Positions 35,902-44,272 of a DNA stretch of 64,000 bases are shown in pieces. Source of the DNA: an uncultured Candidatus Saccharibacteria bacterium (GTDB lineage Bacteria; Patescibacteriota; Minisyncoccia; UBA6257; UBA9933). Position 1 is the stretch's first letter, and the number at the start of each line of letters is the position of its first letter. Where the stretch lies: contig CAZXNT010000003.1 of NCBI GenBank assembly GCA_964642155.1, positions 64,899-128,898 of the forward strand. Direction: 5' to 3'. The position numbers and the translations under genes are program-made. The notes under the pieces are model-generated. The model did no database searches, was not told where the DNA came from, and was given only the letters and a program-made list of their open reading frames with translations.

Positions 35902-37740
35902 ATGAAAAGCTTTTCTAAAAACATTTTTTGGGCGATTATAGCGTTTTTAATAATAACGTTTCTTTTTTCACTCGCTTATCAAGAAAAAAAGGCGGAGGTT
36001 GTTTTAAGCCTTGACCAATTGGCGACAAAAATCAATTCTAATGAAATTTCCAAAATCGTTGTAAGCGCGAATAATTTGGATATTGAATTGGCAAACGGCG
36101 AAAAAACGACCGCTAAAAAAGAATTTGAATCGGGGTTATCTGAAACTCTGCGAAATTTCAACGTTGACGCCAGCGCGTTTAAAAAAGTAAATATAGAAAT
36201 CAAAGAAGAATCCGGCTGGAAATATTGGGCGAGTATTTTACTCCCCTCTCTTTTGCCGCTTTTAATCATTGGCTGGTTTTTATGGATGATGTTCAAACAA
36301 GCCGGACGCGGAATGAGCCAAGCGATGACTTTCGGCAAGGCCAATATCAAACTTTTTACTCAATTTAAAGACCGCGTCACTTTCAACGACATTGCGGGAC
36401 TAAAAGAAGCAAAACAAGAATTGATGGAAGTGGTGGACTTTCTGAAAAATCCGAAAAAATATCTTGATATCGGAGCAAAAATTCCGCGCGGAGTTTTATT
36501 ATATGGAGCTCCGGGAACGGGGAAAACTTTATTGGCGCGCGCGGTGGCCGGCGAAGCCAATGTTCCGTTTTTTCACATTTCCGGTTCGGAATTCGTGGAA
36601 ATGTTTGTCGGCGTAGGAGCCAGTCGCGTCCGGGATTTATTTGACACTGCCAAGAAAGCCGGACGGTCAATAATTTTCATTGATGAGATTGACGCCGTAG
36701 GCAGAGAAAGGGGAGCCGGATTGGGCGGCGGGCATGATGAAAGAGAACAAACTTTAAACCAAATTCTCGTTGAAATGGACGGTTTTGAAAAAAACGACAA
36801 ACGGATAGTTGTCGCCGCCACCAATAGACCGGACGTCTTAGATATAGCGCTGTTGCGACCGGGCCGTTTTGACCGCCGCGTTATTCTTGATTTACCGGAC
36901 ATCAACGACCGCGAAGAAATTCTAAAAATTCATGCCAAGGGAAAAATTCAGGCAAGTGATATTAATTTAAGAAAAATAGCCGAACGAACTCCGGGATTTT
37001 CCGGAGCTGATTTGGCAAATTTGCTGAATGAAGCCGCTCTGCTGGCCGCCAGAAAAAACCAAAAAGAAATAAAGCAATTTGATATTTTTGAATCAATTGA
37101 AAAAGTATTGCTCGGTCCGGAACGCCGTAGCCGAGTTTTTTCCAAAAAAGAAAAAGATATCACCTCTTTTCACGAAGCCGGCCACGCTTTAGTCGCCGCT
37201 TCGCTCAAAAACGCCGACCCTGTTCATAAAGTTTCCATCGTCGCCCGCGGCCGAGCCGGCGGCTACACTTTAAAACTGCCGCTTGAAGAAACATACCTCC
37301 GCACTAAATCGCAATTTATGACCGACTTGGCAATGATGCTCGGCGGATATATTGCTGAAAAATCTGTTTTTGGAGATGTTTCCACGGGCGCATCCAGCGA
37401 TTTACAAAGCGCTTCTTCTTTGACGCGCAAACTTATTACCAAATACGGAATGAGCGAAAAACTGGGGCCGATTACTTTCGGGAAAACAGATGGAATGGTT
37501 TTTCTTGGACGGGAAATCGCCACTGAAAAAAATTATTCCGAGGACGTGGCAAAACAAATAGACGAAGAAGTGAAAAATTTTATTGATAAAGCTTACAACG
37601 CAGCCGCAAAAATTATTACTTCGCGCAAAAAAGTTTTAAACGCCATAGCCAAAACGCTTATGGAAAAAGAAACCATTGAACGCGAAGAATTTGATAATTT
37701 AATAAAAAGCTTTAAACTTAAACTTGTTGAAATAAAATAA
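35902..37740 (+). CDS. ftsH: ATP-dependent zinc metalloprotease FtsH
   Basis: Walker A GPPGTGKT, SRH, HEAGHA zinc motif, 612 aa. Confidence 0.95.
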
Positions 37741-37744
37741 ATTT

Positions 37745-37821
37745 GCGCCTGTAGCTCAGCTGGTTAGAGCATCGAGCTTATACCTCGAGGGTCCTTGGTT
37801 CGAGTCCAAGCAGGCGCACCA
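37745..37821 (+). tRNA. tRNA-Ile (anticodon UAU)
   Basis: Acceptor GCGCCTG/CAGGCGC, anticodon stem TCGAG/CTCGA, loop CTTATAC, T-arm CTTGG-TTCGAGT-CCAAG, encoded CCA. Confidence 0.8.
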
Positions 37822-38265
37822 CGTTGGAAATGTCAAAGATTCAGATGTCGCCTCGCTTCGCTCGGCGACCAAATCGTACGGATTTTTCGGGGCAAAAAGA
37901 AATTCCCGATTCCGTAAAATATGGTTCGAGCCGATGTTTTTCAGAAATGTTGTCATTTCGGAAAGATTTTCTGATTCAAGCAATTTAGCGGCTTGATTCA
38001 ATGATAAAACGAACTCACGAGCCGGTTCGAGCCAAGACAGACCTTTTTGCTCAAAGTCGGTGATTTTTTCGTTTAGCGCGACCTTTTGGGAAATGAGGAT
38101 GTCTTTTTTGGCGGCATATTCTTTTTGTGTAAGCGCGTCATCCAAATATACATCGAGCAATTTTTGGAGCTTCATCTCGATTTGCGATAATTGATTTTTC
38201 AGATTTATCACTTCGCCTTGTGCTTGTTCCTTTGCTTGCATTTCTTCTGCGTTTAGCGCCGCCAA
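37756..38265 (-). pseudogene. C-terminal (coiled-coil) part of large serine recombinase, in frame after a TAA; 3' end reads through IR-B/IR-A into tRNA-Ile
   Basis: Same frame as 38281..39285, separated by single TAA (38281-38283) plus 5 codons. Coiled-coil-rich sequence typical of large serine recombinase C-terminus. Confidence 0.5.
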
Positions 38266-38280
38266 AACTTTTTCAGTGTT

Positions 38281-39285
38281 TTAGCTCGACAAAGAAACTT
38301 TTTGTAGGAAACTTTTGATTTGTACCACTAACTGATTTTCGCCGAGATACTTTTCTTGGCATTTGCCTCGCTTCTTCGTGCAACGATAGTAAGTGTAAAT
38401 ACCACCATTTCCTTTAGCGTATTGAGCAGTTATCGAACAACCACACGAGGCGCATTTCATTAGGCCAAGAAAAGCAAAATCATGTTTTCTGTCTGGTCGG
38501 ACTTTTCCGCGCTTTGTCATAACTTCCTGACATCTATCAAAAAGTTTCTTTGAAATTAATGGCTCGTGTTTTCCCTCAAAAATTTCCCCTTTGTATCTCA
38601 TTAACCCGATGTAAAAAGGATTTTGTAAGATATGCTGAATATTGCTCATTGAGATTTTGTTTCCGGCATTTGTCAGCAACTTCTTTTTCTCACACCAATT
38701 TGCGAGAGTGTTGAGAGGATATGCTCCGGTGGCGTACATCTCAAAAATCTTTTTCACTTTAGAGGATTTCTCGCTATCAACATCAATACCTCGCGTCTTG
38801 GGATTATTTGCATATCCCACCGGAGCCCAGCTTGGCCATACTCCATTTCGTATCTTTTGGCGTAGTCCTCGTTTCACATTCTCTCGTAAATTGTCTACAA
38901 AGTATTTACTCTGTCCAAAAGCAATGTTCAGCATAAATAATCCTTGTGGTGTTGGTTCAAACCAAAAAGTAGGAAATTTTAGAGAACGAATCAAGCCGCG
39001 ATCTACAAAATGGATAATCTTTCCGCCGTCCACACTATTGCGGGCCAACCTATCCGGATGCCATGAGATTATGCCGTCAGCTTTTCCTTTCTCAATCAAG
39101 GACAACATTTCTGCGAATTTAATTCGCCCGGGTTCTTTTGCGGTTTTGGCTTCCCGAAAGGAAGCAACGATTTCAAGTTTTTCTTTGGCGGCAAATTCTT
39201 TGAGCTCAACGAGTTGCGCTTCAATACTCAATACTTGGCGGTCATCTTCTTCTGTGCTTTTTCTCGCGTAGATAATATATTTCAT
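38281..39285 (-). CDS. large serine recombinase (resolvase/invertase catalytic + recombinase domain), N-terminal 334 aa
   Basis: MKYIIYARKSTEEDD...SIEAQ catalytic-serine motif, recombinase domain, zinc-ribbon CxxC...CxxC. Confidence 0.8.
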   Translation of the reverse strand: MKYIIYARKSTEEDDRQVLSIEAQLVELKEFAAKEKLEIVASFREAKTAKEPGRIKFAEMLSLIEKGKADGIISWHPDRLARNSVDGGKIIHFVDRGLIRSLKFPTFWFEPTPQGLFMLNIAFGQSKYFVDNLRENVKRGLRQKIRNGVWPSWAPVGYANNPKTRGIDVDSEKSSKVKKIFEMYATGAYPLNTLANWCEKKKLLTNAGNKISMSNIQHILQNPFYIGLMRYKGEIFEGKHEPLISKKLFDRCQEVMTKRGKVRPDRKHDFAFLGLMKCASCGCSITAQYAKGNGGIYTYYRCTKKRGKCQEKYLGENQLVVQIKSFLQKVSLSS

Positions 39286-39772
39286 AGTTTTGTTTGGTTA
39301 ATGATTAAAATTTTTCTTTTCTGCTTCTAACGGAATCGGGAATTTCTTTTTGCCCCGAAAACTCCGTACGATTTGGTCGCCGAGCGAAGCGAGGCGACAT
39401 CTGAATCTTTGACATTTCCAACGTGGTGCTCTATTCTTGAATTAGTCCGAACCGCTTTTGCCACCGCAGGCGGCGAGGAAGTCCCCCCGCGAAAATTCGG
39501 GAAGGCGGTGGAGCCGCACGAATCAAAACCGCAAAAGAACCCGTTAAAAACATCGGCTCGAACCATATTTTGTAGAAGCAGAAAAGAAAAATCTTCATAA
39601 GGAATTGGGACTAAGAGAACAGCGGAAACGCATTTTTTGTTTGAGCTTGACTTCCAACCTATAATATGCTATTCTTATTAGAATCAAAATTAATTAGGTA
39701 AGGGCCATTAAATTTGATATACCTGCCACGAGGGAATCGTGGAAATCTGTACTTTAAAAAGGAGGAAAAACC

Positions 39773-40291
39773 ATGTTTAACTTCATTAGGAGTATCTTCG
39801 GATACTACAAGGCGAAGTCCCTTGAGGAATTCGTCGAAGTCTTGGAAAGAGAAAGAAAGGATCGCGGAGTAGCAATAACAGTCAAACCGTACACAAAGTT
39901 TAAGGGGATTTGTATAAGTATAGACAACGCGAATGTCCAGCTTATGCTGAAATTCACGGGCATAATGTCTTGCGGTCGTAAGGTTGTCTACAAACGGCGT
40001 GGCGCCTTTTTGAAAACATCTCGAAACTCTCATTACAAACAAACCAAAGGCAAAGCCTATTTAAAAAACTTTATGATTGGCGAACAGAAAGTTATAGAGC
40101 TACGGGAAAAATTTCCCGGCGTGTCTGTGAACCTTATCTTCGAGAAGATGGAAGTAGAGTTCCATAGCGACAGATCTCTAAAAAGCTTTGGTTTTGCTGA
40201 ACAAGTTATGGACAGTAACTTGTTCAGCAAACTTCATAAGGAGGCGGCGGGATATGGCCTCTTTATCCACGATGTCTTAGAAGAAAACTGA
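39773..40291 (+). CDS. hypothetical protein carried inside IR-C-bounded segment
   Basis: Perfect SD AAAGGAGG 7 nt upstream of ATG, 172 aa. Confidence 0.5.
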   Translation: MFNFIRSIFGYYKAKSLEEFVEVLERERKDRGVAITVKPYTKFKGICISIDNANVQLMLKFTGIMSCGRKVVYKRRGAFLKTSRNSHYKQTKGKAYLKNFMIGEQKVIELREKFPGVSVNLIFEKMEVEFHSDRSLKSFGFAEQVMDSNLFSKLHKEAAGYGLFIHDVLEEN

Positions 40292-40569
40292 TGCCTCCCA
40301 TCATCTACCAGAGGGAATACGCTTACGCGATTCCCTCTTTTTATTTTTTATAATTTAAAAGAATAAAGAATTTGCCGCTAACCAATACATTTTTCAATAA
40401 TTTTTAAATTGAAAAATGTATTGAAATGAGTTATTATTAACTCATTAGAAAAACTTGAAATTGTCATTCGTGCGGCTCCACCGCCTTCCCGAATTTTCGC
40501 GGGGGGACTTCCTCGCCGCCTGCGGTGGCAAAAGCGGTTCGGACTAATTCAAGAATAGAGCACTTTCTC

Positions 40570-40641
40570 GCGCGCTTAGCTCAGTGGCAGAGCATCTCGT
40601 TTACACCGAGAGGGTCGGGGGTTCGATCCCCTCAGCGCGCA
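40570..40641 (+). tRNA. tRNA-Val (anticodon UAC)
   Basis: Acceptor GCGCGCT/AGCGCGC, anticodon stem TCTCG/CGAGA, loop TTTACAC, T-arm GGGGG-TTCGATC-CCCCT. CCA not encoded. Confidence 0.8.
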
Positions 40642-40664
40642 CAAAAAATATAAAAATAATTTAT

Positions 40665-41174: not shown

Positions 41175-41261
41175 GGAGGGTTGGCTGAGTGGTCTAAAGC
41201 GCCGCACTCGAAATGCGGTTGGGGAGAAATCCCCTCAGGGGTTCAAATCCTCTACCCTCCG
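41175..41261 (+). tRNA. tRNA-Ser (anticodon CGA)
   Basis: Acceptor GGAGGGT/ACCCTCC, anticodon loop CTCGAAA, long variable arm GGGGA-gaaa-TCCCC. Confidence 0.8.
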
Positions 41262-41426
41262 CAATATTTTTCCGCTACCATTTTAATGGCGGCGGGAAAA
41301 TATATCAGAAATGTAAAGGATTTGAAGACCGCAGCGCAGCGCGAGTTATTGCCGTAGGCGATAAGCGAGCGCCGCGAGGGGCGGCCTGCGAAAAATTTCC
41401 GTCAGGAAATTTATTTGTAGGCAAAT

Positions 41427-41445
41427 CCTCTACCCTCCGCCAATT
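41427..41445 (+). repeat. direct duplicate of tRNA-Ser 3' end (AAATCCTCTACCCTCCGC)
   Basis: 19-nt identity to 41246-41261 region, about 165 nt downstream of the tRNA, separated by GC-rich DNA. Confidence 0.5.
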
Positions 41446-41580
41446 TTCAGAATTCCCCCCTCCTTATATCTTTGGCCGTCCTTGACCCTCCCGCTCATTC
41501 GCGGACGGCAGCAAGGAACCCCCTTATAGTTTAATATTGCTTTGTTTAAGCTAAAATTAGCTTTTTTTGCGACTCATCAT

Positions 41581-41615
41581 TTGACAGAACAGTTATTTTA
41601 TGCTAAAATTTATTA
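41581..41615 (+). promoter_or_regulatory. near-consensus sigma70 promoter (TTGACA-17-TGcTAAAAT)
   Basis: Perfect -35, 17-bp spacer, extended -10. Confidence 0.5.
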
Positions 41616-41786
41616 TTGATCTTTGAAAATTTAATTACGCTGCCTAATGAAGAGAATTTCAAATTTTACTTGGAATTTTGTTTGTTGGGCAGCAAACCAT
41701 CCTTTGGATGGTCAAATTTCCAAACCGACCTGGTGAAACTATGATGAAAGTCAAGTTATCAAAAACAGGCGGTATTAGGAGGATGT

Positions 41787-42227
41787 ATGAACAGCTTTAC
41801 TATCAGAACGAAAAAATGGAGTGGAAAAAGTACAGAAAAAAAAGACTTGGGAATCTTCGATATATACCAAGGCAGGCATGATAGGGATGAGGTCTGTGTC
41901 GAAGTAACCCTTTTGGGACATTTCATCCTTCCTGCTCATCGCGAAATAGGTATCTATTCCATCCCAGCAAATCTTGTTGTAAATTCTGCCGAGATAAGAG
42001 TACCTGTTCCCGTGGCCTGCGACACGACAGTGATGATAGGCGACTACATTGTCGCTGGGGCCGTCGGTACTGTTGTACTGGAAGATTTTTTAGCGAAGCG
42101 CTACAAAATTTTTATCCAGGCAAAACAGGAATATGCTGCCCACTATCTTTTACAGCAAATTCTCGGGGGAGAACTGCCTCCGACAATAAGTCTTGAAAAA
42201 CTACAGATAGCAGCAAAGGAGGAATAG
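41787..42227 (+). CDS. hypothetical protein (island cargo?)
   Basis: AGGAGG SD, strong promoter upstream, GC-richer composition. Confidence 0.5.
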   Translation: MNSFTIRTKKWSGKSTEKKDLGIFDIYQGRHDRDEVCVEVTLLGHFILPAHREIGIYSIPANLVVNSAEIRVPVPVACDTTVMIGDYIVAGAVGTVVLEDFLAKRYKIFIQAKQEYAAHYLLQQILGGELPPTISLEKLQIAAKEE

Positions 42228-42337
42228 GTCTTGCAGTAATTGTAATGGCCTCTCCCTTTTACGCGACCTTCTTAAGGAAAAAGGCAAGGGAAGGTTGGGA
42301 GGCAAGCTTCCAATAAAAGTCGTTTCTATATTATAAG

Positions 42338-42378
42338 CGGGTATGCCACCAACATGGCACACCCGCTTTCTTTTTTTA
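42338..42378 (+). terminator. rho-independent terminator
   Basis: GCGGGTaTGCCA-ccaaca-TGGCAcACCCGC then TTTCTTTTTTT. Confidence 0.55.
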
Positions 42379-42460
42379 AAATTGCATAAAAGTAGGCAAT
42401 ATGCTATATTTTATTTGAAAAGGATTAACTTTTTTAAATATTAATTAAATTATAAACAAT

Positions 42461-43222
42461 ATGTTTGATGAAAGAAAACTAATAAAAATAGAGACTGTGG
42501 ATGAAAAAGGACAAGGCGAATCTGGTTCATCGGTTTCCCGTCAAGCTATTTTAAAAAATTGGGACGAAATAAGGGATACGGCTAATAATGGATTAAATGT
42601 TACGGGAAGCTATAGCCCCGAAGAAGAATTGGAAGATCCCGAAAAATTAAAACACAATCGGTGGAATCGTGAGCAAAGAGTCCAATTGGTGGCTGACACC
42701 ACAACCGTTGTTCCTGAAAAGAGAGCAGAATTTGAAATTGATAACATTTGGGAACAGGTTCTGAGTGATATAAAAGCTTATCGGCAAAATGATATAAATA
42801 AATACGCAAGAATGGCATATGGTGTTAAAAAAATATGGCCTGAAAAATTTTCTGAAATAGACTTTAATGACGATGTTCGTGCTGAAATTAAAGAAAAAAT
42901 AAAAGAAGATCGGATAAATAGCACAAATTGGAGAGTTTGGCCAAATCTTTTAATAATTTCAAAAGAACTCTGCCCCGAAATAATTGAAAAAAATGAATTA
43001 GAAAAAGATCTTGAGGAATTAAGAAGTGTGCTTAAGGTTTGCTATAATACTAACTGGTCAAATTACCTCGATGCTTTGGTTAATTTGAAAATCATTGCCC
43101 CTGAAGAGGTAGCAAAATATTTGGATGAAAAAAGCAAAGAAAATATTAAAAAGATTGTTTCAGATGAAAAGTATAGATATTCGGAAAAAGCAGCTAAATT
43201 AAATATTGTTTCAGGAGAATAA
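42461..43222 (+). CDS. hypothetical protein
   Basis: 253-aa acidic ORF, no recognisable motif. Confidence 0.45.
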   Translation: MFDERKLIKIETVDEKGQGESGSSVSRQAILKNWDEIRDTANNGLNVTGSYSPEEELEDPEKLKHNRWNREQRVQLVADTTTVVPEKRAEFEIDNIWEQVLSDIKAYRQNDINKYARMAYGVKKIWPEKFSEIDFNDDVRAEIKEKIKEDRINSTNWRVWPNLLIISKELCPEIIEKNELEKDLEELRSVLKVCYNTNWSNYLDALVNLKIIAPEEVAKYLDEKSKENIKKIVSDEKYRYSEKAAKLNIVSGE

Positions 43223-43555
43223 AAAAATTGTGAAGGGAGATATAAAATGAAAAAATTTGCGCGCATGGGTGGGCTCAGAGCAAGCAAATTTTACTTTTGA
43301 ATAAATATAGCGTAGTCCTGCTTTCCGCCGTTCCGAATTCTCGGAACTCCAAAACAAAAAATTTTCTTTTCCTTTTTGAAAAAAATTTGGGGCGCGCGAC
43401 ATCAAAAAAATGTGGAGAAAATTTTTCTGTTTTGGACGCAATTCGCCGCGGCGAATTGCGGGCGGAAGCGGGCGGAGCGCTAAAAGTCGGAGTCCGGATT
43501 TTCCGCAAAAAAAGTTCGGATTTTAACCAAAAGGCACCGCCGCCAAAAATTAACA

Positions 43556-44272
43556 ATGTCTAATTTTGTAAAAATAATTAAAAAAGTGATGCCTGCCATA
43601 GTGTCTATTGTCGTTTCGGAAAATCTTAAAGAAATTCCGAAAAAACTTATTACTCCGGCAACGCGAAAGAAATTAAAAAAAATCGTTAATAACAACGGCG
43701 ATATTGAAGTTGGCGGCGGTTCGGGATTTATTATTGATAAATCCGGCCTTATCGCCACAAGTAAACACATTGTCGCCGACCCCAAAGCCGATTATACGGT
43801 AATAATAAATAATGGGAAAAAAATCAAGGCAAAAGTTATTTTTCGTTCCCCGCACAATGATATAGCTATTCTAAAAATTTTCAATTTTCATCCGCCAGCT
43901 GGCGGATCAATTTCTAATTTTCAAACACTTAAGCTTGGCAATTCCGATAAAGTCCAATTAGGCGAAAACGTTTTGGCATTTGGAAGTCCGCTTGGAAATT
44001 TCCCCAACACTGTTTCCGAGGGCATTATTTCAGGATTGCACAGGAAGATAAAAGCGGAAACCGACTTAAAACCCGGCGAAGATACTTTGAAAGAAATGAT
44101 TCAAACAGACGCGGCGATAAATCCGGGCAATTCCGGCGGCCCGCTGGTAAATATGAAAGGAGAAGCAATCGGCATTAATACCGTTGCCGTAATGAATGCG
44201 GAAAACATAAGCTTGGCAATTCCCATTAATCCGATAAAGGATATTTTAAAAACTAATAAACGTAATCGCTGA
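43556..44272 (+). CDS. trypsin-like serine protease (S1C/HtrA-like, no PDZ)
   Basis: Catalytic His (TSKHIV), Asp, and GNSGGPL serine motif. Confidence 0.8.
   Translation: MSNFVKIIKKVMPAIVSIVVSENLKEIPKKLITPATRKKLKKIVNNNGDIEVGGGSGFIIDKSGLIATSKHIVADPKADYTVIINNGKKIKAKVIFRSPHNDIAILKIFNFHPPAGGSISNFQTLKLGNSDKVQLGENVLAFGSPLGNFPNTVSEGIISGLHRKIKAETDLKPGEDTLKEMIQTDAAINPGNSGGPLVNMKGEAIGINTVAVMNAENISLAIPINPIKDILKTNKRNR

What the first reader, a model, noticed from the sequence alone, without database searches (positions are those of the whole stretch)
37822..40563. Nested 93-, 96- and 26-bp inverted repeats around a serine recombinase, wedged between tRNA-Ile(UAU) and tRNA-Val(UAC)
Three distinct inverted-repeat pairs are interleaved. 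IR-A is 93 bp with one mismatch (37822-37914 vs 39331-39423). It extends 6 nt into the tRNA-Ile 3' end. IR-B is 26 bp (37916-37941 vs 39546-39571). IR-C is 96 bp and perfect (39426-39521 vs 40468-40563). IR-A encloses the recombinase gene, whose 3' coding end runs through IR-B and IR-A. IR-C encloses a 172-aa ORF with a perfect Shine-Dalgarno sequence. A serine recombinase flanked by near-perfect inverted repeats is the classic arrangement of DNA-invertible segments (Hin/Gin/Cin, shufflon-like). The repeats are far too long and too perfect for chance. I therefore infer a programmed inversion switch, or a recently active tRNA-targeting element carrying one. Two adjacent invertible modules could alternate which ORF is expressed.
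Basis: partly seen in the sequence, partly recalled or inferred. Interest (0 to 1): 0.85.

Follow-up and report, generated by a model that had tools for sequence, protein, structure and literature searches.

The report
tRNA-targeting serine-recombinase gene-cassette element
The nested inverted repeats belong to one 2.7-kb mobile element inserted at the end of a tRNA gene; it is a member of a large family in candidate-phyla-radiation bacteria, not found in the literature searched, that carries an odd internal mirror copy of its own attachment site.

Summary
The repeats are real: 100 nt at 99% and 103 nt at 98%, plus shorter pairs. They are not a Hin-like switch.

Relatives whose FtsH is 95% and 89% identical have tRNA-Ile directly followed by tRNA-Val. 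The window therefore carries a 2,744-bp insertion (37820-40563) with GCAC at both ends.

The same architecture recurs in about 77 Patescibacteria loci, next to tRNAs with 22 different anticodons:
- a large serine recombinase (LSR) bracketed by arms A/A';
- one variable cargo gene bracketed by arms C/C'.

The outer arms are the two halves of attP, split by integration at tRNA positions 71-74. The inner arms A'|C form an intact, inverted second attP between the divergent recombinase and cargo genes. The tRNA T-loop motif lies 5 nt closer to the crossover than its mimic in C', as for attB versus attP in known serine integrases.

Arm pairs are about 99% identical within an element but 75-85% identical between elements. 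The recombinase orientation is fixed in 77 of 77 genome loci; rare flipped copies occur in metagenome assemblies.

Here the recombinase carries a nonsense codon (Gln335 to TAA) and the cargo is an orphan ORF. What the internal attP copy does is unresolved. I found no description of the family in the literature I could search.

The parts
37745..37821 (+). tRNA-Ile(UAU), the integration target (attB left half). Its last two bases, CA of CCA (37820-37821), are supplied by the element.
   Evidence: ARAGORN and Rfam, 71.9 bits. In the empty sites of relatives the gene ends ...GGCGCAC|TTT with no encoded CCA.
37816..37819 (+). Left copy of the 4-nt core GCAC (tRNA positions G71 C72 A73 C74), shared by attB and attP. 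The crossover lies within it.
   Evidence: Junction comparison in 45 loci. Synteny with relatives breaks at 37819|40560, and both copies align to the same GCAC.
37820..40563 (.). The inserted mobile element, 2,744 bp.
   Evidence: Absent from L102, L103/L104 and L105, which have FtsH-tRNA-Ile-tRNA-Val-DUF1003.
37816..37915 (+). Arm A (outer arm, the P' half of attP, now part of attL). Holds a GC-rich hairpin (37848-37870) and, on the minus strand, the last ~33 codons of the recombinase.
37916..37941 (.). Motif B, AAAATATGGTTCGAGCCGATGTTTTT: a near-palindrome with a T-loop-like core. It encodes KNIGSNHIL and is conserved at synonymous sites.
   Evidence: The exact 26-mer is present in 48 of 81 loci and the rest differ by a few bases. 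It is a third-codon-position conservation island at codons 449-456.
37816..39285 (-). Large serine recombinase gene, disrupted here. Codons 1-334 lie at 39285-38284, an in-frame TAA at 38283-38281 (Gln/CAA in homologs), and the remainder runs to ...LTFPTWC at 37816. The frame then continues into antisense tRNA-Ile, with the stop at 37756-37758.
   Evidence: Pfam PF00239, PF07508 and PF13408. Translation. Homologs are 75-90% identical and span the stop.
39129..39201 (-). F (39167-39201, KEFAAKEKLEIV), an 18-nt hairpin (39149-39166) and e (39129-39148, KTAKEP) inside the recombinase gene. These are nucleotide-level conserved blocks whose inverted copies flank the cargo cassette.
39304..39329 (-). 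D', the recombinase 5' leader block. Its inverted copy D lies at 39573-39598 in front of the cargo.
   Evidence: (pair I5).
39330..39429 (+). Arm A' (inner arm, inverted copy of A).
   Evidence: pair I2, 99%.
39330..39528 (-). J2, the intact internal copy of attP. Read on the minus strand it is C'|GCAC|A. It lies between the divergent recombinase and cargo genes.
39409..39437 (+). Sigma-70-like promoter match spanning the A'|C junction and pointing into the cargo module (TTGACA, 17 nt, TATTCT).
   Evidence: The TTG and a TAnnnT hexamer recur across the family. Function is inferred, not shown.
39426..39528 (+). Arm C (inner arm, inverted copy of C').
   Evidence: (pair I1, 98%).
39524..39598 (+). 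Left frame of the cargo cassette: e (39524-39543), B' (39546-39571) and D (39573-39598). These are sense-orientation copies of three recombinase-gene blocks.
   Evidence: conserved in 39 of 45 loci.
39647..39675 (+). The cassette's own promoter match (TTGACT, 17 nt, TGcTATTCT), preceded by a short hairpin and T-run at 39623-39639.
   Evidence: The same layout occurs in many other cassettes.
39773..40291 (+). Cargo gene, 172 aa, with AGGAGG at 39760-39765. No known domain.
   Evidence: No Pfam hit. Only itself among 5.8 billion proteins. Seven weak relatives at 31-47% identity among 1.84 billion representatives.
40310..40349 (+). Terminator-like hairpin (AGAGGGAAT...ATTCCCTCT) plus T-run after the cargo gene.
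   Evidence: Read directly from the sequence.
40365..40464 (+). Right frame of the cassette: block F, split here (40365-40381 and 40447-40464) by a 65-nt insert that holds a perfect 16-nt hairpin.
   Evidence: pairs I12, I18, I19. F is contiguous in most other loci.
40461..40563 (+). Arm C' (outer arm, the P half of attP, now part of attR). It ends ...GCGGTTCGGACTAATTCAAGAATAGA-GCAC. The GTTCG motif sits 23 nt from the core, against 18 nt in tRNAs.
40570..40642 (+). tRNA-Val(UAC), the downstream neighbour. It is part of the attB right flank and is not altered.

Best explanation
Window 37820-40563 is a single integrated mobile element of a Wolfebacteria-like Patescibacteria (CPR) bacterium.

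How it got there. Its large serine recombinase (LSR) recombines an attachment site on the element, attP = C'|GCAC|A, with the 3' end of a tRNA gene, attB. The crossover falls within G71-C72-A73-C74. Integration splits attP into the two outer arms: A next to the tRNA, where it restores CCA, and C' next to the downstream flank.

What the inner arms are. A' and C are not crossover sites of an invertase. Together they form a second, intact, inverted copy of the roughly 200-bp attP region. It sits between the recombinase gene, which points toward the tRNA, and a single cargo gene, which points away from the recombinase and is co-oriented with the tRNA.

Target choice. It rests mainly on the tRNA T-arm plus the GCA(C) end. 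The GTTCRA motif lies 18 nt from the core in tRNAs and 23 nt in C', the 5-nt attB/attP offset described for the zinc-ribbon-domain motif of serine integrases.

Shown here: the insertion and its exact boundaries, the family-wide architecture, the diversity of target tRNAs and of cargo, the concerted evolution of the arm pairs, the near-fixed orientation, and the nonsense codon in this copy.

Inferred, not shown: that the enzyme acts as an attP x attB integrase through a circular intermediate; that the T-loop is the zinc-ribbon-domain motif; and that the internal attP copy serves as a promoter/operator region for the divergent genes and/or as a spare recombination site. One locus, L080, looks like the product of the internal attP recombining with a second tRNA.
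For: Empty site.
- FtsH-tRNA-Ile-(6-24 nt)-tRNA-Val-DUF1003 occurs in relatives whose FtsH is 95% and 89% identical.
- Synteny breaks exactly at 37819|40560, and GCAC is present at both ends.

Family.
- There are thousands of homologs at 75-90% identity across Adler-, Kuenen-, Moran-, Lipton-, Brenner-, Jorgensen-, Yanofsky- and Wolfebacteria-type genomes.
- 433 matching stretches were found in the one-genome-per-species collection.
- The same C'..cargo..C|A'..rec..A|tRNA layout holds in the loci fetched.

Targets.
- In 58 of 77 loci a tRNA 3' end abuts arm A. These tRNAs cover 22 anticodons.
- G71-C72-A73 occurs in 50 of 58 targets against 32 of 93 non-target tRNAs (p = 2e-10).
- The core covaries with the target: CCAC for tRNA-Ala, GGACA for tRNA-Arg(UCU).
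- Homolog C-termini read ...TWC and then antisense T-arm (xESNx).

Site geometry.
- The 5-nt offset of GTTCR was measured. The matching rule for the LI integrase is in PMC3783163.

Enzyme.
- LSR domain set. Distant relatives with solved structures are SPbeta SprA and the A118/LI integrase.

Cargo.
- One gene per element, always in the same orientation. Examples are an SSF symporter, subtilase, radical SAM, Na/Ca exchanger, DHODH, SDR and a methyltransferase.

Arms.
- Median 99% identity within an element against 75-85% between elements. Mismatches show no G:U strand bias.
Against: - No excised circle or attP junction could be shown unambiguously. Contigs with F.C'.A.B (L085, L093) may be tandem copies or graph artefacts.
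- No directionality factor is evident, so how, or whether, the element excises is unknown.
- Nothing in standard LSR biology requires a second, inverted attP or 100-nt arms. Their function is therefore unexplained rather than demonstrated.
- Two insertions (L009, L032) share only 1 nt of core identity with attP, which fits a strict 2-nt crossover rule poorly.
- Copies within one metagenome-assembled genome (MAG) are as divergent as copies between genomes, so recent intragenomic hopping is not documented.
- All genomes used are metagenome assemblies.
Confidence: 0.8

Rival explanations
1. Programmed DNA-inversion switch. The recombinase inverts the segment between A and A', and the segment between C and C', to alternate expression of the recombinase and the cargo ORF.
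For: - Near-perfect inverted repeats flank each gene.
- Flipped recombinase modules exist. L109 (MEGAHIT k127) and L110 (k141) carry B'.A'.C.e junctions that need real reads. L088 shows a flipped module next to a tRNA-like 3' end.
- Two of 120 homolog clusters read from the recombinase into arm C.
- Identical arms are what recombination between them would maintain.
Against: - Orientation is canonical in 77 of 77 genome loci, and the non-canonical-junction pattern matched none of the 81 local sequences (80 loci plus the window).
- The cargo gene has the same orientation in all 45 loci analysed.
- The enzyme is an LSR. It is not a Hin-type invertase, and no 26-bp hix-like crossover sites lie at the arm centres.
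- The shared core lies at the arm tips, as in att sites.
- Under LSR site rules, attL x attP is not a permitted pair (PMC3783163).
- This copy's recombinase is truncated.
Confidence: 0.1
2. Two separate transposons with terminal inverted repeats lying side by side: a recombinase unit A..A' and a non-autonomous cargo unit C..C'. Each would be mobilised through its own ~100-bp terminal repeats.
For: - Each module is bounded by its own inverted repeat.
- In L080 the recombinase unit stands alone between two head-to-head tRNA-Ala 3' ends, with no cargo unit.
- L003 holds two cargo cassettes.
Against: - The empty site shows that both modules are absent together, and the pair is bounded by one 4-nt core repeat.
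- The two modules are adjacent in 45 of 45 complete loci, with arms overlapping by the core.
- The tRNA is always joined to A and never to C. The flank is always joined to C'.
- Serine recombinases act on paired sites, not on transposon ends.
Confidence: 0.05
3. Assembly artefact: a collapsed or chimeric repeat in a metagenome contig.
For: - Arm length (~100 nt) is close to short-read and k-mer lengths.
- Many related contigs break at the arms.
Against: - The same architecture appears in dozens of independent assemblies made with different assemblers (scaffold, k141 and NODE contig names).
- Each assembly has lineage-specific arm sequences.
- Logan unitigs from the same sample reproduce the cargo region and arm edges at 100% identity.
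Confidence: 0.01

Closest known systems
Phage and integrative-element large serine integrases (phiC31, Bxb1, A118/LI, SPbeta SprA)
   Same: - Resolvase + recombinase + zinc-ribbon domain order, about 500 aa.
- Integration at a short core shared by attP and attB.
- A DNA motif that sits 5 bp closer to the crossover in attB than in attP (PMC3783163).
   Different: - Only distant in sequence (E about 1e-11 to SprA).
- The element is only 2.2-3.5 kb and carries one cargo gene.
- No candidate directionality factor is evident.
- It targets the 3' end of many different tRNAs rather than one site.
- It carries a second, inverted, intact attP region with ~100-nt arms.
- The recombinase ORF has no stop codon of its own and reads out into the target.
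Tn4451/Tn5397 (TnpX, TndX 'large resolvase' transposons) - from my own knowledge, not checked here
   Same: - Small elements moved by an LSR alone through a circular form.
- The circle joint creates a promoter. Here a promoter-like match spans the C'|A-type junction.
   Different: - Those elements have no tRNA specificity.
- They have no long internal inverted repeats.
- Neither the circle nor the joint promoter is demonstrated here.
SCCmec-type cassette chromosomes (CcrAB) - from my own knowledge
   Same: - LSR-driven insertion at the 3' end of a conserved housekeeping gene.
- Variable cargo.
- Tandem or composite arrays, as in L003, L066 and L110 here.
   Different: - SCC elements are tens of kb and use two recombinases.
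- They target rlmH.
- Their internal sites are direct repeats, not inverted.
Hin/Gin/Cin invertible segments
   Same: - A serine recombinase gene lying between inverted repeats.
- A nucleotide-conserved block inside the 5' part of the recombinase gene (F-hairpin-e). This recalls the position of the Hin/Gin enhancer (from my own knowledge).
   Different: - The enzyme class differs.
- Arms are 100 nt rather than 26 bp.
- The crossover core is at the arm tips.
- Orientation is almost fixed.
- The whole unit is an insertion relative to sister genomes.
tRNA-targeting genomic islands and tycheposons (tyrosine integrases)
   Same: - Insertion at a tRNA 3' end that regenerates the tRNA end.
- The integrase lies next to the tRNA.
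- Small cargo.
   Different: - The recombinase family differs (serine, not tyrosine).
- Only 4 nt are shared, rather than a duplicated tRNA segment.
- Many tRNA species are used.
Integron gene cassettes
   Same: One gene per cassette, highly diverse cargo, fixed cassette orientation, and a conserved frame around the cargo (D...F here).
   Different: Each cassette here travels with its own recombinase. There is no attC/attI system and no tyrosine integrase.

Membership tests
Large serine recombinase (LSR) family | N-terminal resolvase catalytic domain with the serine nucleophile | tested here: met
   PF00239, E = 6e-22, residues 4-150. The YARKS motif at residues 6-10 is nearly invariant in 13 sequences.
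Large serine recombinase (LSR) family | Recombinase domain followed by a zinc ribbon domain | tested here: met
   PF07508, E = 5e-19, and PF13408, E = 3e-7. Matches to SprA and A118 integrase structures.
Large serine recombinase (LSR) family | Coiled-coil insertion in the zinc ribbon domain that controls directionality | not tested
   Residues ~340-420 look heptad-like by eye. No structure prediction or coiled-coil scoring was run.
Large serine recombinase (LSR) family | Short attP and attB sharing a central crossover, with the zinc-ribbon-domain motif shifted 5 bp inward in attB | tested here: met
   Shared core GCAC. GTTCR lies 18 nt from the core in tRNAs and 23 nt in C'. The rule is taken from PMC3783163. 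That the motif is actually contacted by the zinc ribbon domain is inferred.
Large serine recombinase (LSR) family | Unidirectional attP x attB reaction, reversed by a directionality factor | not testable with these tools
   Needs biochemistry. No conserved small accessory gene is present in the element.
Hin/Gin/Cin-type invertase switch | Small (~190 aa) serine recombinase with a C-terminal helix-turn-helix | tested here: not met
   The protein is 509 aa with the LSR domain set.
Hin/Gin/Cin-type invertase switch | Both orientations of the segment present among cells or strains | tested here: not met
   No flipped copy among 77 genome loci. Two of 120 protein clusters and about 7 metagenome contigs are flipped. 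Within-population reads were not available.
Hin/Gin/Cin-type invertase switch | Crossover sites are the inverted repeats themselves (26-bp hix/gix-like) | tested here: not met
   The sequence shared with the target and flank is a 4-nt core at the outer tip of each 100-nt arm.
tRNA-targeting integrative element | Precise insertion at a tRNA 3' end, with an empty site in relatives | tested here: met
tRNA-targeting integrative element | The target tRNA stays intact after insertion | tested here: met
   tRNA-Ile scores 71.9 bits. The element supplies CA, completing CCA.
tRNA-targeting integrative element | Excised circular form carrying the attP junction | tested here: inconclusive
   F.C'.A.B junctions occur in L085 and L093. 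They cannot be told apart from tandem copies or graph paths, because the junction equals the reverse complement of the internal copy.
Insertion sequence or transposon with terminal inverted repeats | The two outer termini of the mobile unit are inverted repeats of each other | tested here: not met
   The outer termini are A and C', which are unrelated. Each pairs with an inner arm instead.

The most novel reading that the evidence does not exclude
The twin arm pairs form a built-in licensing switch for transposition. In the resting (canonical) state the recombinase gene faces the tRNA, so read-through from the tRNA promoter is antisense to it. A rare exchange between the identical 100-nt A arms flips the gene behind the tRNA promoter and into an operon with the cargo, as seen in L109 and L088. 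This switches the recombinase on, and the intact internal attP then supplies a ready recombination partner. A second unexcluded reading is that a single strand of the element folds C'A onto A'C. That would give a 199-bp duplex attP (a dumbbell), letting the element establish itself after uptake by natural competence.
Probability: 0.15. Interest if true: 0.85.

Novelty: new variant of a known kind. Interest (0 to 1): 0.68.

Why it matters
CPR/Patescibacteria make up a large part of bacterial diversity, yet almost no mobile elements or genetic tools are known for them.

- **What the family is.** It is abundant and tiny (2.2-3.5 kb). Each element moves one gene, and the cargo spans very different functions (transporters, proteases, metabolic enzymes, secreted proteins). 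It spreads across CPR classes with a recombinase that stays 75-90% identical. It is therefore a candidate major route of gene exchange in these reduced genomes.
- **Possible use as a tool.** The recombinase appears to read a universal tRNA feature (T-loop plus a GCA-CCA end). That would be an unusual, broadly portable landing site for an integrase, and a natural starting point for genetic tools in CPR bacteria.
- **An open mechanistic question.** The conserved internal inverted attP copy, its concerted evolution with the outer arms, and the recombinase-gene fragments that frame the cargo match no serine-integrase system known to me or found in the searches here. In vitro recombination and long-read data could address them directly.

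Tried and rejected
- **RNA families.** Rfam at a permissive threshold found only the tRNAs.
- **RNA-level pairing of the arms.** Arm mismatches show no G:U strand bias (32 vs 34; 17 vs 25). The pairing therefore looks like DNA-level homogenisation.
- **Consensus folding of the arms.** RNAalifold failed because the hairpin region does not align. Whole-arm folding z-scores were not significant for A. Only the by-eye observation remains that each lineage has a different GC-rich hairpin at the same position.
- **A small protein encoded by the internal attP copy, from the ATG inside B.** This frame is open for 60 aa or more in only 10 of 39 loci, so I do not claim it.
- **Coding of a conserved recombinase tail by arm C.** The frame is open (median 44 aa), but this rests largely on one conserved motif that closes the other two frames. 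It is suggestive only.
- **Phage carriage.** Only two partial relatives were found in IMG/VR.
- **Empty site or heterogeneity in the source sample.** Logan contigs break inside the tRNAs and the arms.
- **Independent confirmation of the TAA codon.** The 334-aa product is not on record.
- **Metagenome scan for non-canonical junctions.** It returned 11 contigs. Most could be graph mis-joins, because the circle junction equals the reverse complement of the internal copy. Only the k127 and k141 contigs found through protein tails count as solid evidence.
- **Literature.** Five searches and one paper on Patescibacteria tRNA genes gave no description of this element.
- **Pathways using the internal attP for replicative transposition.** Worked through on paper, they all predict chromosome inversions, deletions or dimers, so I do not propose one.


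Full report
**Observation**

- Arm pair A: 37816-37915 vs 39330-39429, 100 nt, 99%.
- Arm pair C: 39426-39528 vs 40461-40563, 103 nt, 98%, with a perfect 98-nt core.
- Pair B: 37916-37941 vs 39546-39571, 26 nt, perfect.

Three further short inverted pairs link the recombinase gene to the edges of the cargo region.
- D: 39304-39329 / 39573-39598.
- e: 39129-39148 / 39524-39543.
- F: 39167-39201 / 40365-40381 + 40447-40464.

The inner arms A' and C abut and overlap by GTGC (39426-39429). tRNA-Ile(UAU) at 37745-37821 and tRNA-Val(UAC) at 40570-40642 are confirmed.

The minus-strand gene 39285-37816 has Resolvase, Recombinase and Zn_ribbon_recom domains. It is a single frame of about 509 codons interrupted by TAA at 38283-38281. 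Homologs have Gln there (SLSSQDTEKVL), so this copy carries a nonsense mutation.

**It is an insertion**

The window's FtsH (35902-37740) has relatives at 95% and 89% identity. In their contigs FtsH is followed by tRNA-Ile(UAU), 6-24 nt, tRNA-Val(UAC) and the DUF1003 gene, with nothing in between.

| Site | Sequence |
|---|---|
| Empty site | ...GGTTCGAGTCCAnGCAGGCGCAC\|TTTnTC-GCGCGCTTAGC |
| Window, left end | ...CAGGC[GCAC]CACGTTGG... |
| Window, right end | ...AATAGA[GCAC]TTTCTCGCGCGC |

BLAST synteny breaks at 37819|40560, and both GCAC copies align to the same four bases. The insert is therefore 2,744 bp (37820-40563).

In the empty site the tRNA-Ile gene encodes no CCA. The element supplies CA, which completes it.

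**It belongs to a large family**

The read-through recombinase has thousands of homologs at 75-90% identity, 486-656 aa long, in many Patescibacteria lineages. The one-genome-per-species collection held 433 matching stretches, of which 80 loci were fetched.

BLAST of the window element against these loci, ARAGORN and self-BLAST all show the same layout. Read in the recombinase's sense it is:
- outer C arm;
- 0.6-2.1 kb of variable DNA;
- inner C arm;
- A arm, recombinase, A arm;
- an antisense tRNA whose last 6 nt overlap the arm.

Forty-five loci have both arm pairs complete and adjacent.

In 58 of 77 loci a tRNA 3' end abuts the arm. These targets cover 22 anticodons and 11 amino-acid types. 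All homologs end ...LTFPTWC, where TGGTGC is the complement of GCACCA. They then continue with variable xESNx tails, which are antisense T-arms. The recombinase ORF therefore has no stop codon of its own.

**Site anatomy**

Aligning the three junctions of each locus gives:
- tRNA...[core]CA-A at the tRNA side;
- C'...[core]CA-A at the internal junction, read on the recombinase strand;
- C'...[core]-flank at the far side.

The outer arms are thus the two halves of an attP (C'|A) split by integration. The inner arms form an intact inverted copy of the same ~200 bp.

The core is GCAC in most loci. It covaries with the target: CCAC with tRNA-Ala, GGACA with tRNA-Arg(UCU), GAGCCAG with tRNA-Asn. 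G71-C72-A73 occurs in 50 of 58 targets against 32 of 93 non-target tRNAs in the same loci (p = 2e-10).

The T-loop motif GTTCR starts 18 nt before the core in tRNAs (31 of 40). A GTTCG motif in C' starts 23 nt before it (33 of 43). The attB right half is not conserved.

A 5-bp inward shift of the zinc-ribbon-domain motif in attB relative to attP is the rule described for the LI/A118 serine integrase (PMC3783163). The match supports, but does not prove, an LSR-type attP x attB reaction that reads the tRNA T-arm. The nearest solved structures, SPbeta SprA and the A118 integrase, are only distant relatives.

**Cargo**

Between the C arms each element has one real gene. It always diverges from the recombinase and is co-oriented with the target tRNA.

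Examples from Pfam:
- sodium:solute symporter;
- PD40 propeller;
- S8 subtilase;
- radical SAM;
- Na/Ca exchanger;
- dihydroorotate dehydrogenase;
- short-chain dehydrogenase;
- methyltransferase.

The cargo sits in a conserved frame, C-e-B'-D-[gene]-F-C'. The blocks e, B', D and F are sense copies of blocks of the recombinase gene and its leader. The cargo ATG sometimes abuts D and its stop sometimes abuts F.

Within the recombinase gene, F (codons 29-41) and B (codons 449-456) are the strongest of five islands where third codon positions are more than 90% conserved, against a mean of 68%. These blocks therefore act at the nucleotide level. Their role is unknown.

The window's cargo, ORF 39773-40291, has a strong Shine-Dalgarno sequence. 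It has its own TG-extended promoter match and a terminator-like hairpin. It has no Pfam domain, no close homolog, and seven weak relatives of unknown function.

**Is it an inversion switch?**

The recombinase module has the canonical orientation in 77 of 77 genome loci. A pattern diagnostic for the non-canonical junction B'-A'-C matched none of the 81 local sequences (80 loci plus the window).

A metagenome-wide scan for that pattern found 11 contigs.
- Some show the recombinase module flipped relative to the cargo module: L084, L086/L091, L088, L090, L094.
- Some show a circle-type or tandem-type junction: L085, L093.
- One is a rearranged dead copy: L089.

The circle junction equals the reverse complement of the internal copy, and the arms are about read length. 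Many of these paths could therefore be graph mis-joins.

Protein tails give an independent estimate. Two of 120 homolog clusters read from the recombinase into arm C. Their contigs come from MEGAHIT k127 and k141 assemblies, where a k-mer spans a whole arm. They show a flipped recombinase module, and in L109 the far end is joined to a flank. L088 has a flipped module next to a tRNA-like 3' end.

Flipping between the A arms therefore does occur, but at the 1-2% level across the family. That is not the balanced pattern expected of a phase-variation switch. The enzyme class and the site geometry also do not fit Hin/Gin/Cin.

**The arms**

Within an element the two arms of a pair are a median 99% identical, and 18-19 of 45 pairs are perfect. 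The same arms are only 75-85% identical between elements. This holds even between copies in one MAG, whose recombinase genes differ by 19-28%.

Mismatches show no G:U bias on either strand. The arms are therefore homogenised at the DNA level within each element. The mechanism (gene conversion, or something tied to transposition) is not known.

Each arm has three parts:
- a conserved ~30-nt half-site next to the core;
- a GC-rich hairpin whose sequence differs between lineages;
- a conserved inner part, which in A encodes the recombinase tail NREFLFAPKNPYDLVAE.

**What the internal attP copy might do**

This part is inference.
- A sigma-70-like match (TTGACA, 17 nt, TATTCT; 39409-39437) spans the A'|C junction and points at the cargo. 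Both hexamer positions are kept across lineages.
- The copy lies between two divergent genes, as res does in Tn3-type elements (my own knowledge). Promoter/operator duty is therefore plausible.
- In L080 the recombinase module lies between two head-to-head tRNA-Ala 3' ends, with no cargo module. That is the product expected if the internal attP recombined with a second tRNA, so the copy may be recombinationally live.
- I could not construct a harmless transposition pathway that uses it. No circle was proven and no directionality factor is visible.

**Status of this copy, and novelty**

The arms are 99-100% identical and the site is empty in relatives whose FtsH is 95% identical. The insertion is therefore recent on that scale. 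The recombinase is truncated after the zinc ribbon, and no second copy lies in the window. This copy is probably immobile unless it is helped in trans.

Five literature searches and a recent paper on Patescibacteria tRNA genes gave no description of the family.

I file it as a new variant of a known kind: an LSR-driven integrative element. Three features set it apart:
- broad targeting of tRNA 3' ends;
- a single-gene cassette design;
- a conserved internal inverted attP.

Noticed in passing
window 41263-43561: A second insertion of ~2.3 kb lies directly after tRNA-Ser(CGA) (41175-41262). It is absent from the same relatives, where about 22 nt separate the tRNA from a trypsin-like gene. It carries two ORFs without domains (41787-42227 and 42461-43222) and no recombinase. 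The tRNA-Ser 3' end, CAAATCCTCTACCCTCCGC, is repeated at 41422-41440.
   Followed up: partly
L080 4799-6595: The recombinase module alone lies between two head-to-head tRNA-Ala 3' ends: tRNA-Ala(CGC)|A..rec..A'| then a 44-nt tRNA 3' fragment plus tRNA-Ala(UGC). There is no cargo module. This fits recombination of the internal attP with a second tRNA.
   Followed up: partly
L032 ~5700 and L077 ~6460: Two elements are inserted next to AAAATAGGTTCGAGC-type sequences that resemble motif B or arm C' rather than a tRNA. L077 also has a 267-nt perfect inverted repeat nearby, which suggests nesting in another element.
   Followed up: no
window 39623-39700 and the left edge of many cargo cassettes (L003, L004, L006, L009, L015, L017, L023, L024, L027, L042, L053): Many unrelated cargo genes are preceded by the same module: a terminator hairpin, TTGACn-17-TGcTAtnnT, and a similar leader (GAAATCnAGAC...). 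This looks like a shared promoter/leader cassette of unknown origin.
   Followed up: no
window 38536-38562, 38278-38307, 38011-38040 (recombinase codons 242-250, 327-336, 416-425): Three further islands of synonymous-site conservation lie in the recombinase gene. No repeat partner was found for them. The second contains the codon mutated to TAA in this window, and the third contains another GGTTCGAGCC.
   Followed up: no
L110 4101-4377: The contig end reads C'-A-B-e'-C'. It may be a ~250-bp recombinase-less mini-element (A-B-e'-C') in tandem with a full element.
   Followed up: no
L089 1930-3334: A rearranged copy. The first 172 nt of the recombinase gene and its leader are replaced by an inverted copy of the gene's last 42 nt (motif B). 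The breakpoint lies just after block e.
   Followed up: no
L103/L104 1-3050; proteins P0129, P0132, P0161: In close relatives GyrA carries an intein. Some FtsH homologs (~1,066 aa) carry an intein with a LAGLIDADG domain. The window's FtsH has none.
   Followed up: no
L003 199-2502: One element carries two cargo cassettes separated by a partial C arm (positions 10-68 only). This suggests that cassettes accumulate or fuse at the C arms.
   Followed up: no
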